Shown here: positions 1 to 54,628 of the stretch, piece after piece | Layout of the letters: every line of letters starts with the position of its first letter | How positions within the stretch are numbered: the first letter of the stretch is position 1 | Origin: Podarcis gaigeae | Lineage: Eukaryota | Direction: 5' to 3' (one strand) | Assembly: GCA_964106915.2 (NCBI GenBank) | Contig: OZ066919.1 | DNA length: 64,000 nt | Position numbers and translations under genes: made by a program | The notes under the pieces: model-generated | The model's database searches: none | What the model was told of the DNA's origin: nothing | The model's input: the letters and a program-made list of their open reading frames with translations, nothing else

Positions 1-3000
1 GGAGCAGGAAGGAGCAGCTTGGATGGGACCAGCAGGTCTGAAGTTTTAAAATTCTAGTTCTGATTTGCTTCTCTCTCTCTCTCAACCAAATCAGTTGGCC
101 TAGTAAGGCATGGTTACTGGAACAGAATGCTATTTAAGGACATGGGCTTCCAAACATCTTAGCTCACAAGGAGACCATTATTCTGGCAGCAAAGTAGAAA
201 GAAGTGACAGTATCTCTTTAATTACAGGCTGCTGTGATTGGAATGCAGCGTGCACAGGGCACTAAGGATGTGAAGGGCATGATGAAAGCATATTAGACAT
301 GCATCTATGAAGGTAGGAAGAGAACCAATAAAGAAAGCATGTCAGCACATATCCTGTCCACCTTTCAAGCGCTAATAGTAACTTTTCCCCTGGACTGCTC
401 GATTCCTTGTGAATTTTAAGCAGCTAACCACTTTGCTTCTGACTCCTTATGGGAGGTGTCATTTTCTAACACCCTGCATTAACACTCTGGTTAATTGTAA
501 AAAGAAGAAGAAGAAAAATCTGTGATTTTTATCTAGGGGGGAAGGGGACGACAGTTGTTAAAGCATTGTGCCTTCAAAGTGCCCAGCTTGCACATCATGA
601 GTAATCACAGTTAATGGCTTACTGTGAATGCAAATATCACTCCTCTCCTCTAGAGGAGGGATGGGGAATTGGATCCAGACTGCCGGCCAGCTCTTTATTT
701 TCCCCACTCTCCATGGACAAGGTTTAACAGGTAGATGAGGTCATGCAGTGCGTGCTGCATAGAAGCCTCTACTGTCAGCTGATGGAACTTCAAAGTACCA
801 TGCATGACTCTCTGTAAGCACTAACGACCAGCTGATTGTAAGGGCTTCAAAGTGTCACACACAGCGTCACAAATGTTGGGGCTTATTATGAGCCTCACTA
901 GGCACTATGTACAGGGTTTTTCAGGTCCTGCTGACTGGGAGTATCGACAAAGCTGTTTTTGGCCCAGCAATGTCTTTACCTGCTCCACACCTGGTGCCAT
1001 TTATGACTTCTGGTGAAGGGCAGCGAGGTATGGCTTGGTCAAAACAACCTTGCAGGTAAAATGAGGTTTCCCACCGCTGCTCTTGACAGTGGGAGCAACA
1101 AGCGACGATCTCTGTCTCAGCATTATGCCTGACTGGGAACTGTAGTTTGCTATGCTGAAACAAAACATGGTTGGTAAGACAAATCTTGGCTCAACACCCT
1201 GGTTTGTTTGGAAACAAACCACAATCCCTACTTCAGACATAACCTTAATACCTGGGTATTAAGGTTTGTTACGCCTGCTGGCTACAAGGGACGAGTGAAA
1301 CGAAAGCCTTCTGTGCATTTGATGGTTTAATGGATTACTGTGGTGTGCAAATTCTGCCAATGTGTGTGCATGAGGAGCTTAATATCAAAGCTATGGCATG
1401 TAACACAGTGACTGCTTCTGCAGTTATAAAATCTAAGTTTTTGATGGGTTACTTCATTCATTCGTACTGTGCTGTTTTCTCCTGTCGCCATATTATTATT
1501 GTATTTGTCTCTTTATTTTCAATTTGTGTGTTAAGAAATTTTCTTTCAGATTTATGCAGAATTCTAGACTAAACTTTTATTCTCACAATGGTTTTCTTGG
1601 ACAAGAATTGGTGATTCTCAAATTCTCCTGATATGCTTCATCAACACACTTTCATTTATTCAATAAAGTAAGTAATGCCTGATAGGATAGTCAATTAACT
1701 AGTGTTAATCATAGTTTTTCTTCTAGGTTCATTAGCTTGGAGAGTTCATAATCATCAATATAGTTTGGAATAATAAACTCACTAAGAGAACTTTAGAATA
1801 GAGGGCATGGGTTGGAAACCAACCCACTACTTACATGAACAAGACAGTGCTTAAAGTTTCATGGGGTGACAAATTGGAGTGTATCCTCTAAATGTCTAGT
1901 TATGTTTGCAAATGATCAGCCTTCAAATAATCCCTCCATTTTAGATTTGCTTATATGGTTTTATGCTGCAAGATGTATGCATGGTACTTCTTTCAAAGTT
2001 CTGCAGGGAACCGTTTAAGCAGCTTGTTATTCATGACACCAGTTCTTGCTCTTCATCATTTCAAATCAAGCCCTTTTGTATTTCTTTCAAATAATTCTGG
2101 AAACTCTGGAGGATTTCGTGGGAGCTCAGTTCAAAATTAATTATATCTGAGCAGAGGGTCTTACCATTAGGGAGGGTGAACCAGCCACCTCAGGCAGTAA
2201 ATTTGGGGTGTCATGAAAGGGCAACAAAGTGTTCATTATTTAGTTTGTTATTATTGTATCTTTACTGCCAGGAAGCAGGGAGAATTGCTTGTGGGGTTTT
2301 CAGGTGCCAAAATAACTTGACTGGCCTCACGAACTATACACCTTGACTTGATGGTGGTATACCATTTGCTGTTCTGCCTCAGGCAGCAAAAGGTGTTGGG
2401 CTGGCTGAATCTGAGTAAATCATCCTGTTTGCTTAAAAGCACTAAGCAAGCAGAGATGTACAAAGAGCACGTTGGCTCTAAGTCACATAGATTAACAAAA
2501 TGCTAGCAGTGTTACCTGTTTCAGTGCCTTGGAAGCAAGGGGGAAACAAATGTAAAACTTGAACGCAGGACCCATCTGTAAACAGCCAAAGAAAACACCT
2601 TGCTTTGGGAAGCTGAGATAAAAAGTGGCTGATGTCCTTAAAAGGTTGCCTTTGAGTTTCATAGAGGGGTGATTGTAGTGGCACATGGCCCCCACTACAA
2701 CAGTCAAGAGAGGTGGGTTTGCTAGGTTATACAGAGACGATCAACAAAATGAGATTGTCTGAGATCCTATAGAAAAGGATGGAATATGGAGCCCATCACA
2801 GGCTTTTGGAGAAAATGTGTTTATTTTTCTCTGGATACAATCTGAGCAAGGTTTTCTGGGCAGTGAACGCACGAGCGTGAGGAGGGTAAGTTGCTGAAAA
2901 ACCCTGAAGATGCCTCTCTGAATAATCTGGTGTGTGAGAGAGACCAAACACATTGCTTCCATCTCTCCCATAGCATCTAGCTTTCTATCTGCTGTGGTGA

Positions 3001-3465
3001 TGCTAATGAGCATTCCATTATCTTTCTTGATCCATCATGTAGTGCAAATTTCCTGGGACTGTACCATTTCAGACTACACATGAAGCACTGCACATCTGAA
3101 TGCCCCGTCCCCACTATCTGCACATACAATACTAGCACAAACATAAGCTAGGACCTCTGTTCCTCATGTGCTAAGTTTCCAGAGAAATTTTGATGTGAGT
3201 AAAAAACCATCTCTTATCTGCAGCCTGAAATGGTACAGATATAGGAATAGTATACCATGCAAGTTATCTGCATATGGAGATCAACACCTTTTTCTTTTGC
3301 AGAGATCTTTGAGACATAATGGGAGAACAAAGGGTGGTAGAAAATGCACATTTATGGGAATGTGATATCTTGATGACTATTGAACTGACAAAGTTGCTCT
3401 TTGTAATAGGTGGGGTAGAGAGCCGAAAACAAATGCCTGTCACACATGCCAAGCAGGAAACATAC

Positions 3466-3535
3466 CTGTAATCAAACGACCCATTATCTACCTTCTGGTC
3501 GTCAGGGTCCAGGGGTACATCTTTATTTTCTCGCA
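3466..3535 (-). CDS. NFASC: NFASC first cytoplasmic exon (VRENKDVPLDPDDQKVDNGSFDY)
   Basis: ttcacag| ... TAC AG|gtatgt, 70 nt, phase 1-2. Confidence 0.95.
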
Positions 3536-6577: not shown

Positions 6578-6709
6578 CTGGATATTTCCCTCCTCTGCTT
6601 CTCTTAATGAAGCAAACTATCAGCAAAATAAGGACCAGGAGAGCGATGGCACACATCAGTCCAATAAACCAGCCCTGAGTTGCAATGTCCCCTTGGTTCT
6701 TGTTATAGG
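6578..6709 (-). CDS. NFASC: NFASC transmembrane exon ([44 protein letters not shown])
   Basis: ctactag| ... |gtaaga, 132 nt, phase 1-1; diagnostic neurofascin TM segment. Confidence 0.97.
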
Positions 6710-7650: not shown

Positions 7651-10266
7651 ATGGTTTCTTTGGGGGAAACAAACCATAAGCACTGGTTCACATAGAAGAC
7701 AATGGCAGCCTCTGGTTTGTTTCCTCCTTGACACACCAAAGGAAGGAGCAAGGGGAAGAGTACAATAGGGATTTTTGAGCAGTATGCTCCAGCACACTGC
7801 TCATTCGCATAAAGCATTTGTTTAATTTTAACTATGGTTTAACATGTACAAACCAGGTCATTATCTGTGTGGGGATTTTTCAGATTTGAGACATCATATC
7901 GGGCCTTTCTATTTTTCCAAATGCATCACAACTCAAGTTCTAACAGTGACAATTCAGATCCAAGGATAGCAGTGAAGGCAAAGGAAAACACAGGTGGGTA
8001 CAGCAGACTTGCGTAGAGAAATAAATATATGGTATTGCCTAACAAAGGAGGGTTATATAAAATGGGTGGGGGAAGCAGAAGAAGCTGGGTAACAGATTTG
8101 ATTCATGGTAATGGGAAATATTGTAGGTGGTACCTCAAAAGAGGATGCAAAGTTCTCCAAGGAGCAACCAAGGATTCATATTTATCTGGTACCTAGCTAG
8201 AACAAACAAGTACAAAAGGCTTCCTAACACATTATTCAATGTCCTGAAAACCACAGAGAACATGAGAGACTGAGGCCTGCCCAGGCTTGTCCCAGCTTGT
8301 GTACAATGCATTAAGTAATGGTTTATAGCATGATGTGTTTTTGCAAAACATCACAAAGTTTTCCCAGGGAAAGTGGCAGGACTAAAAAAAAACAAAAAAC
8401 AAAAAAAAGCCCACACAAAACCCTCTCAGAGCCCTGATTAGAAAGCATGGGACAAATGGAAGAAATCATGGGATGAGCCCTAAGTCAGGCTCATTAATTT
8501 CAATGCGTTTACTCTGAGTAAGACTTAGTTGAATACCACCCAAAGCTTGAAGCTTATGTGACTTACCAACTATGGTGGTAGTATATTTCTTCTACCGGTA
8601 AATTATTTTGCGAAAAAGGAAAACATACACATCTAACTGACCTAATTATTATAATATTGCACACAACCCATTACTCTGTTGGATTTTAAATAAATGTTAT
8701 TAGTGACATATGACAAGTGAAACAGTGTCAAGTCTTAAATGAGCAGCAATTCAATGAAGTCAATTCTTAGCTTATATAGCACTTTATTTTCTTGGGCCAA
8801 GTTCATCCTGGATCACTAAAACATAGACATTTGAGAGTACCTAACGTAAAAACTTGTGCATTTCAAACTTCGCAAAAAAGCAGAGCTCATCAAGACTGTA
8901 TGCACACTTCATTATAGGAATGATTCACTCAGAGAAACTGTGAAAGGGTTTAATGGTTGGCTTCATGACTTTAAAATCAATGGTAATTTTTCCTCCTTGT
9001 GAATCAAACTGGAATTGCGCTATTAAACCATAACCTAATGGCTTTATCAGAACGCCAGTAGGAAGTAACATGTATAAGCAGCTTTCAAGTTATTGACAAT
9101 AAATTAAAAATATCCTGAATAGCACTAATGGAAGATTATCACAGCCACGCAGAGTTGAAGCTCTGCCAACAGTATAATGAAGATACACTCTATATTCGTA
9201 GCCAACAGACCTTTCTTAGACTCTCTCTGGGTCTTCTCACATTAAGTGCTCAATTCCGCAATACTTACTTACAACAAAAGTTTGATCACAGGAGGACATG
9301 CAAATGTATTAGAGGACACCCTCTCTTTTAATTCCACCCAAATAAGTGAATATATGTTATTTTGGTTCCCCAGCCACCCTAAAATCAGGTTGTCTTCAAA
9401 GCTGGGAATGGATTATAAAAAATGTGCATTTGGCGTCAGGATCTTTGGGGCAGAGGCCCAAACTCACACGATACCAGGGCCCATGAACATTTAGGCCCCA
9501 GAGCCATCTTTCTTACATATAAGTAGGTAAAAATGTTGCCATGCTGTAGTTTGCTTGGCCACAGATAGGGAGCACTGCAAAAAAAATGATGATGAGAGGC
9601 AGTGGATGGGAAGTCCAGGCAAGTCATAGAAGGGCAGTCAGAGCAGACTGCAGCCTTGCACCTCCCCCTCCACTGACTCCTCTGCTTGCCAGCCTCTGGG
9701 ACCTTGCCCCTAGGATCCAGATCCCCAAGCCAGCTAGCCCTGTGCTAGCTACCTTCTTCCTCCCTGGCCAGCCTCAAAATCCACTGCTGTTTCCACCACC
9801 GTTTAGCATCAAGAGCAACGCAGGGGTGAGGAAGGCGCCCAGAAGTGCCAGCTAGCCTTGAGATCCAGAGCAATGGCATTGAAGTGGAAAGGAACAAGGC
9901 AGACACCCAGAAGTGGTAGCTGCCTGTCCTTGGAATCCATGGAAAGTGGAAGGTCTAAGCTGCCCCACCTTGGCCCTTTCATCCTCTGAAAGAAAAACAA
10001 ACATGTCCAACTACTCTCCCTAACAAAGTCAGTACTTCTCAATTTGCCTCCCTCAGTGCAGCCTCTAGGACCTCTGTAGTCATCTTCCAGCATCTTTCGT
10101 CTGTCATGATCTGAACAATCGCCAGTGTTCCAGCTCCCTTAGAAAATCTTAAGGGCTTTTTTGCTTTTTACCTCCATTTCTTCAAGTGTCTCTCACAGCA
10201 GCTTTTTAATTACACTACTTTCCAGCTTGAGTTACACACAATGATTTTACTTCCCTCCCAACCTCT

Positions 10267-53816: not shown

Positions 53817-54628
53817 AAAACACGGTTGCCAAGCCTTTAGGTATGTGGCCCTGAAAGCGAAGTTATGGCTTTGGCTTAAGCTTTGTTTCAGACCGGTAGG
53901 TTTGGCCCCCTTGATTCTGAGGGATAACTTTAAATCTCCATGGGAAGGGGAGATAGTGGAGGAAGTGCAGAAGTGCGGGTTGTCCTCCCTTTATATAGAG
54001 TCCATGACGTATAGCCACGCAAAGGCGGTGATCGCCCAAAGAGTAAGGGATATTGCGAGACAGGAGGACATAGCCCGTGTGAAACCAGGGCTGTTTCTGG
54101 GGGAACAGATGTACCGAGCTGCTCCAGCTTGCTACCTGTCGGATATCCACTACGTGGAATACCACAGACTATTTACCGCGGCTAGGCTGAATGTTCTTGA
54201 CTCGGCGGTTCTGAAGGGAAGATATGGAGGAGTCCCATATGACCAGAGATTATGCCATTGTGTGTTGGGTGAGGTAGAATCCACAGAGCACATTTTACTG
54301 AGCTGTCCCTTCTACAACGATTTAAGACAGTATCTTATAACCCCATACTTACCCCAGCTTAGTCCCTGACAAAGAGGAAAGCAGACAGCATATCTGCTAA
54401 ATAAGTCTTCTAGGAAAACAACTTTGTCAGTGGCTAAATTCCTTTTCCTGGCACTCAAGCGTCGGAAACGTACAATTGAATGCCTTGATGTGGGTTATCT
54501 GTGAGAAGTTTAGTGCTGTGGCCCTACCTTATTCATGTACCCCTATGATGTTTTAGTTCATAATTCTGTATTGTGTTTTATTTCTGTGTTTTATTTCTGA
54601 CTATCGGTCAAATAAAGGAAATTGATTG
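53817..54628 (+). mobile_element. 5'-truncated non-LTR retrotransposon (RTE-X-like ORF2 C-terminus with CCHC finger)
   Basis: ORF ...GRYGGVPYDQRLCHCVLGEVESTEHILLSCPFYNDLR continues in frame past a premature TGA (54367) to ...VAKFLFLALKRRK...TGA (54504). It is followed by AATAAA and an ATTGATTG tail, and flanked by an AAAAATAAAAA duplication (53806-53816 / 54629-54639). Clade assignment is from recall. Confidence 0.8.

What the first reader, a model, noticed from the sequence alone, without database searches (positions are those of the whole stretch)
2516..2527. Candidate 12-nt microexon carrying an in-frame stop that would remove the ankyrin-binding tail
Seen: the minus strand reads ttacatttgtttcccccttgcttccaag|GCACTGAAACAG|gtaaca. 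That is a strong pyrimidine tract with a UGC near the AG, a strong CAG|GTAA donor, and exactly 12 nt, in the intron after the ...GSFDY exon. Established: L1-family genes have a 12-nt neural RSLE microexon in this intron, and UGC near the acceptor is the SRRM4 signature. However, the upstream exon ends in phase 2 (TAC AG), so inclusion gives AGG CAC TGA = R-H-stop, not RSLE. Inference: the stop is 5 nt from the next junction, so it should escape NMD if only an RSLE exon and/or the terminal exon follow. The product would be a membrane neurofascin ending ...FDYRH, keeping RGGKYPV but losing the FIGQY ankyrin motif and the C-terminal PDZ ligand, i.e. a splice switch uncoupling it from ankyrin. No RSLE-coding exon is visible in 1-3465; it may lie left of the window.
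Basis: partly seen in the sequence, partly recalled or inferred. Interest (0 to 1): 0.75.

Follow-up and report, generated by a model that had tools for sequence, protein, structure and literature searches.

The report
Stop-codon look-alike microexon in neurofascin
A 12-base stretch in a lizard neurofascin intron has good splice signals and would cut off the protein's ankyrin-binding tail if it were spliced in, but the gene's known 12-base exon lies elsewhere, nothing shows this one is used, and it is likely a silent look-alike.

Summary
Sequence confirmed: a 12-nt AG…GT site at 2527-2516 (- strand), 938 nt after the phase-2 GSFDY exon of neurofascin. Inclusion would give R-H-stop and drop the FIGQY/ankyrin tail. 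It is not the RSLE exon. That exon lies 3.65 kb downstream, left of the window.

For use: the acceptor outscores all 17 mapped real acceptors of the gene. Sites this strong occur 11 times in 800 kb of background, 0.11 expected in this intron. One relative's contig over the site differs at 3 of 364 bases against a 2.8% mean (p 0.01-0.04).

Against use: 0 of 159 database neurofascin tails carry R-H-stop, while 23 carry RSLE and other truncated isoforms are annotated. The donor is middling. UGC precedes 5 of 17 ordinary acceptors. Two equally strong frame-shifting sites lie in the same gene. No paralogue has a counterpart.

Splicing itself could not be tested. Verdict: likely a silent pseudo-microexon (0.65); a real truncating switch 0.2. 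The scan's earlier notes held no such finding.

The parts
2516..2527 (-). Candidate 12-nt pseudo-microexon; would read R-H-stop after the GSFDY exon (TGA at 2523-2521). The true RSLE microexon and the terminal FIGQY exon lie 3.65 kb and 7.1 kb downstream, outside the window (L002 8865-8854 and 5374-5143)
   Evidence: Sequence; in-script translation with the upstream exon; scores: acceptor 6.2, donor 3.6
2528..2557 (-). Pyrimidine tract (85% C/T), UGC at 2537-2535, AAG acceptor
   Evidence: outscores 17 of 17 mapped real acceptors of the gene
2510..2515 (-). Candidate donor GTAACA (no +5 G, no +6 T)
   Evidence: 9 of 16 mapped real donors score higher
2516..2575 (-). Alternative 60-nt version using an upstream CAG acceptor (score 7.1) and the same donor; in frame, ends at the same stop after 18 residues
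   Evidence: not seen in any of 281 stored proteins
3466..3535 (-). Neurofascin cytoplasmic exon ending GSFDY, phase 2
6578..6709 (-). Neurofascin transmembrane exon ending RGGKYP

Best explanation
A 12-nt stretch with AG/GT ends and a strong pyrimidine tract sits in the neurofascin intron after the GSFDY exon, and it is likely a silent pseudo-microexon that the spliceosome skips or uses only at noise level. Shown: the gene makes its tail by joining the GSFDY exon to the terminal FIGQY exon, directly or through a separate RSLE microexon 3.65 kb downstream of the candidate. Inferred: the candidate is skipped because a 12-nt exon is too short to be defined without dedicated enhancers and its donor is only middling, so neurofascin keeps its ankyrin-binding tail. 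Any rare inclusion would give a protein ending R-H, predicted to escape nonsense-mediated decay but at too low a level to matter.
For: The intron's known microexon is accounted for by another site, which codes RSLE. Of 159 database neurofascin proteins over 120 aa with the GSFDY motif (157 squamate), 133 go on with SDEDNKPL, 23 with RSLE, 2 with a longer in-frame insert, 1 frog model stops at the exon end, and 0 carry R-H-stop. Among lacertids the count is 12 skip, 5 RSLE, 0 R-H of 17. The same annotation sets do hold other truncated isoforms (P0126, P0129, P0162), so truncation alone does not hide an isoform. Sites this strong arise at about 1 per 70 kb of strand. Two others lie in this gene, both frame-shifting (13 and 17 nt). 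Under a looser score, 12-nt sites also occur in the tail regions of two paralogues. UGC precedes 5 of 17 ordinary acceptors. No paralogue intron aligns with the candidate region (best E 0.92).
Against: The acceptor outscores all 17 mapped real acceptors, as expected of a real microexon. Only 0.11 such sites (0.02 with UGC) are expected in this intron, and 0 of 11 background sites were 12 nt long. The 364-nt contig of a related organism over the site has 3 differences where 10 are expected (Poisson p 0.01; 0.04 allowing for overdispersion; one contig, depth 3.9). The database test is incomplete: only 15 of 38 members of the lacertid cluster and 15 of 59 of the largest snake cluster were listed, and the best 120 of 7978 hits. 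Gene predictors can miss 12-nt exons.
Confidence: 0.65

Rival explanations
1. One reading: a real, regulated 12-nt microexon (SRRM3/4-type, perhaps confined to lacertids or squamates). When included it ends neurofascin at R-H, escapes NMD, and yields a membrane protein that cannot bind ankyrin.
For: Acceptor stronger than 17 of 17 real ones; UGC at -10 to -8; AAG acceptor like the gene's RSLE exon; 0.02-0.11 such sites expected in the intron; low divergence over the site in one relative; stop 5-17 nt before the last junction; the whole ankyrin-binding segment lies downstream (PMC9396398 passages).
Against: 0 of 159 database tails, 0 of 17 lacertid tails; middling donor; no paralogue counterpart; 65 of 72 nSR100-activated microexons add residues in frame rather than stop the protein (PMC4387716 passage).
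Confidence: 0.2
2. The donor at 2515 is real but pairs with an upstream acceptor: a 60-nt exon from 2575 (in frame, same stop, 18-residue new tail) or a 251-nt exon from 2766. The 12-nt acceptor is then incidental or a minor alternative 3' site.
For: Acceptors at 2575 and 2766 score 7.1 and 7.7, above the 12-nt acceptor's 6.2; the low-divergence contig spans window 2490-2853, the whole of this longer region; longer exons are easier to define (established knowledge).
Against: Neither tail is among the 159 database tails, although a 60-251-nt exon is much easier to annotate than a 12-nt one.
Confidence: 0.08
3. The splice-site pair is a non-productive decoy or silencer that is kept by selection because it binds spliceosome parts and tunes RSLE inclusion or removal of this last intron.
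For: Strong acceptor with weaker donor; weak conservation signal.
Against: No direct evidence; the site is 3.65 kb from the RSLE exon; the conservation signal rests on one low-depth contig.
Confidence: 0.07

Closest known systems
RSLE microexon of L1-family genes (L1CAM, NrCAM, neurofascin; YRSLE conservation stated in PMC2173555, passages read)
   Same: Same intron region, 12 nt, phase 2 on both sides.
   Different: Codes R-H-stop, not RSLE; 4 of 12 bases match the gene's true RSLE exon, which exists separately downstream.
nSR100/SRRM4-activated neural microexons (PMC4387716, passages read)
   Same: Short, multiple of 3, pyrimidine tract with UGC just upstream of the AG.
   Different: Most of those preserve the frame and add residues (65 of 72) and are shown to be spliced; this one carries a stop, and inclusion and SRRM4 dependence are untested.
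TDP-43-repressed cryptic exon CE1 in mouse Nfasc intron 17 (PMC7946431, passages read)
   Same: A normally skipped exon with a premature stop inside neurofascin.
   Different: CE1 is 104 nt, lies mid-gene, triggers NMD and has RNA support; the candidate is 12 nt, next to the last junction, and has none.
Drosophila neuroglian Nrg167/Nrg180 tail isoforms (PMC3627646, passages read)
   Same: Alternative splicing changes the cytoplasmic tail of an L1-type protein.
   Different: Both fly isoforms keep a FIGQY motif; the candidate would remove it.
Lineage-specific exon gain in TRPV1 of catarrhine primates (bioRxiv 10.1101/2025.01.24.634766, abstract read)
   Same: A short exon confined to one lineage giving an altered, possibly dominant-negative membrane protein; the model for the novel case.
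   Different: 33 nt, in frame, characterised in cells.

Membership tests
L1-family RSLE microexon | Lies between the exon ending in Tyr (GSFDY/FGEY) and the terminal FIGQY exon | tested here: met
L1-family RSLE microexon | 12 nt, phase 2-2, AG/GT ends | tested here: met
L1-family RSLE microexon | Codes R-S-L-E and keeps the frame open into the terminal exon | tested here: not met
   Reads R-H-stop
L1-family RSLE microexon | Is the gene's copy of that exon | tested here: not met
   A separate RSLE-coding exon lies at L002 8865-8854, like those in two paralogues
SRRM3/4-dependent neural microexon | At most 27-30 nt with a strong pyrimidine tract | tested here: met
   12 nt; acceptor above 17 of 17 real ones
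SRRM3/4-dependent neural microexon | UGC close upstream of the 3' splice site | tested here: met
   UGC at -10 to -8; weakly diagnostic, since 5 of 17 ordinary acceptors of this gene have one within 20 nt
SRRM3/4-dependent neural microexon | Sequence conservation of exon and flanks across vertebrates | tested here: inconclusive
   Only close relatives reachable: 3 differences in 364 nt in one contig; no distant orthologous intron could be fetched
SRRM3/4-dependent neural microexon | Included in neural mRNA | tested here: inconclusive
   0 of 159 annotated tails, clusters only partly listed; raw reads were not available
SRRM3/4-dependent neural microexon | Inclusion depends on SRRM3/4 | not testable with these tools
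   Needs knock-down or a minigene
NMD-escaping truncating exon | Stop codon less than 50-55 nt before the last exon junction | tested here: met
   5 nt to the next junction, 17 nt if RSLE follows; assumes no intron in the 3' UTR, which was not checked; the rule itself is established knowledge
NMD-escaping truncating exon | Stable mRNA and truncated protein detected | not testable with these tools
   No reads or proteomics available

The most novel reading that the evidence does not exclude
Lacertid (perhaps squamate) neurofascin has a second 12-nt microexon upstream of RSLE that ends the protein at R-H, escapes NMD and makes a full-ectodomain neurofascin with no ankyrin or PDZ anchor: a splice switch that frees neurofascin from axon initial segments, nodes and paranodes, with two tandem 12-nt exons setting three different tails.
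Probability: 0.2. Interest if true: 0.6.

Novelty: not a real feature. Interest (0 to 1): 0.25.

Why it matters
If silent, it is an ordinary pseudo-exon and shows how easily a 12-nt AG…GT site with a UGC mimics a neural microexon. If used, it would be a natural ankyrin-free neurofascin. Ankyrin-G binding holds neurofascin at the axon initial segment (PMC9396398) and is needed for its adhesion (review PMC4754453), so such an isoform could act as a mobile or dominant-negative form in development or regeneration. I found no such neurofascin isoform in ten full-text searches, which miss most subscription papers. One RT-PCR or junction count settles it.

Tried and rejected
Sequencing runs: 9 listed, no RNA holder on record. 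Three guessed-RNA runs and one other were laid as contigs only. The joint table showed 15 of 43 rows, all at repeats, and the loose-end table 24 of 724, so no splice junction of this gene, not even the ordinary ones, was visible. This is no evidence either way. In all three guessed-RNA runs the deepest listed contig ends exactly at the terminal exon's AG, which fits splicing there but does not name the upstream exon. One contig crosses the candidate unspliced, as pre-mRNA or DNA would.

Conservation in distant species: an exact 24-letter pattern found 0 matches in metagenome contigs. A protein-guided scan gave 6 loci of 220 candidates, at 54-80% identity, none aligning with the candidate region. 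Translations of two open frames across the site found no relative (none; 3 repetitive hits at 32-40%, judged chance). A 67-residue TM-plus-GSFDY query against short proteins gave 109 hits, mostly genomic read-throughs, none ending R-H. The ESM Atlas gave only scores of 0.82 or less.

Microexon catalogues: the MicroExonator mouse table (2,987 rows) lists two microexons at the locus I recall as Nfasc, neither in the last introns. It lists no RSLE exon there either, so this negative has no positive control. The zebrafish table has an 18-nt exon starting with the RSLE 12-mer and no match to the candidate; one file of that paper was too large to read. Supplements of PMC12868881, PMC12626420 (one of 13 files not searched), PMC13059442 and PMC12456627 gave nothing on this intron. 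For PMC2289533 and PMC2119766 only abstract and reference passages came back.

Rejected: that the candidate is a mutated RSLE exon (the real one is intact downstream); that it is a repeat fragment (one match in the genome; single-copy depth); that paralogues share it.

Full report
The observation. The upstream exon, 3535-3466, is 70 nt and ends in phase 2, so the 12-mer would add R and H and then a TGA at 2523-2521, 5 nt before its own end. The 251 bases around the site have one match in the genome.

The gene. The TM exon (6709-6578) translates to a peptide 100% identical to proteins named neurofascin in Zootoca, Podarcis and Pogona, and most window exons match Podarcis isoforms. The organism is thus likely a lacertid lizard (inference). 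I fetched 40 kb left of the window. The terminal exon starts at L002 5374 (4,626 nt left of the window's start) and codes SDEDNKPL…FIGQY…IYSLA-stop. A single RSLE-coding 12-nt exon lies at L002 8865-8854. The order is: GSFDY exon, 938 nt, candidate, 3,650 nt, RSLE exon, 3,479 nt, terminal exon. The segment solved with ankyrin-G (PDB 7xce) lies wholly in the terminal exon (residues 1187-1214 in PMC9396398, passages).

Is it more than chance? I scored sites with simple weight matrices typed from general knowledge; no MaxEntScan was available. The acceptor (6.2) beats 17 of 17 real acceptors mapped in the window; the donor (3.6) is beaten by 9 of 16 real donors; UGC within 20 nt precedes 5 of 17 real ordinary acceptors. 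Of 7,029 AG-(3-30)-GT sites on the sense strand over 68.5 kb, 3 reach both scores: the candidate, a 13-nt site at 54365 and a 17-nt site at 9985; 0 of 6,653 antisense sites do. In 40 background stretches (799,600 strand-bases, genes not masked) 11 sites reach both scores, 2 with UGC, none of exactly 12 nt. That gives 0.11 expected in this 8.1-kb intron, 0.02 with UGC and 0.9 per 64-kb strand. The thresholds were set at the candidate's own scores, so these figures flatter it. The true RSLE exon scores -2.6 on this acceptor matrix, so the score is a poor predictor of real microexons. The site is uncommon, but not beyond chance in a scan of many windows.

Annotated proteins. From I examined 159 proteins over 120 aa with the GSFDY motif (157 squamate, one marsupial, one frog). 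After the motif, 133 read SDEDNKPL, 23 RSLE, 2 a longer in-frame insert, and 1 frog model ends at the exon border; 0 read R-H-stop or the 60-nt variant. Among lacertids the count is 12, 5 and 0 of 17. The same sets include isoforms truncated further upstream (P0126, P0129, P0162), so the pipelines do report truncations and do find a 12-nt exon in this intron. Limits: 120 of 7,978 hits were listed, 15 of 38 members of the lacertid cluster and 15 of 59 of the largest snake cluster; almost no bird or mammal isoforms were seen.

Conservation. Only close relatives were reachable. In run X1, the contig over window 2490-2853 differs at 3 of 364 bases with no gaps, against 141 of 5,078 (2.8%) in the six other listed intronic contigs of that run. 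That gives p 0.01 (Poisson), 0.04 with overdispersion, and 0.04 against the four nearest contigs. It is one contig at depth 3.9, it covers 325 nt upstream as well, and the positions of its differences were not shown. This is a weak hint in favour. Three paralogues were read; by recalled motifs they are NrCAM (C21), CHL1 (C2) and L1CAM (C30). NrCAM and L1CAM have RSLE exons, CHL1 has none, and none aligns with the candidate region (best E 0.92). Under a looser score, NrCAM and CHL1 each have a further 12-nt AG…GT site in the tail region.

The same donor has upstream acceptors at 2575 (score 7.1; 60 nt, in frame, ending at the same stop after 18 residues) and 2766 (7.7; 251 nt). If the donor is used at all, the exon need not be 12 nt.

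RNA. No direct test was possible: only contigs were served (see Tried and rejected).

Mechanism. Shown: tail built from GSFDY exon, optional RSLE, terminal exon. Inferred, 0.65: the candidate is skipped, because so short an exon needs dedicated enhancers and its donor is middling. Rivals: a regulated truncating microexon (0.2), a longer exon on the same donor (0.08), a decoy element (0.07).

Comparison with what is known. It is not an RSLE exon (coding feature not met; the real one is present). It has the outward marks of an SRRM4-type microexon, but those mostly add residues in frame (65 of 72; PMC4387716, passages), and membership is untested. Known neurofascin stop-exons are of another kind (TDP-43-repressed 104-nt exon, NMD; PMC7946431, passages). 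Fly neuroglian tail isoforms both keep FIGQY (PMC3627646, passages). Ten full-text searches (listings read) showed no neurofascin isoform of this kind. I recall reports of NrCAM splice forms with shortened tails but could not confirm them. bioRxiv supplements were closed, and one large MicroExonator file could not be read; either may bear on this.

Verdict. The letters are there and the consequence would be as described, but there is no evidence of use and moderate evidence against. Interest 0.25; the bold reading has probability 0.2 and would deserve 0.6.

Noticed in passing
window 54365-54353, - strand: 13-nt AG…GT site with the best splice scores of 7,029 short candidates in the gene (10.3 and 5.9), in the intron between the last Ig6 exon and the optional linker exon. 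It is frame-shifting. By exon order this may be the intron that holds the TDP-43-repressed cryptic exon in mouse; not aligned.
   Followed up: partly
window 9985-9969, - strand: 17-nt AG…GT site scoring above the candidate (6.6 and 4.9), in the intron before the TM exon; frame-shifting.
   Followed up: no
window 2575 and 2766, - strand: Two stronger upstream acceptors share the candidate's donor (60-nt in-frame and 251-nt exons).
   Followed up: partly
L018 (G000:C2:95067001-95071500), - strand, about 1,737 nt from the high end: The CHL1-like paralogue lacks an RSLE exon but has a 12-nt AG…GTAAGT site without a stop in the equivalent intron; use unknown.
   Followed up: no
P0126, P0129 (Podarcis raffonei X25, Lacerta agilis X6): Two lacertid species have an annotated 976-aa frameshifted neurofascin isoform that ends before the TM segment, a predicted secreted or NMD form.
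   Followed up: no
L006 347-2500 (last intron, next to the terminal exon): All three guessed-RNA runs have contigs over the part of the last intron next to the terminal exon; may reflect a slowly removed or retained intron, an internal start, or DNA in the runs. Contigs cannot rank levels.
   Followed up: no
PMC7821500 supplements, files 2 and 4: The zebrafish table has an 18-nt microexon that starts with the same 12 bases as the lizard RSLE exon, while the mouse table has no RSLE-type exon at the locus I recall as Nfasc.
   Followed up: no
L002 5140-5110: A short CAG repeat just after the stop codon varies in length among the laid runs (insertions of 6 and 9 bases).
   Followed up: no
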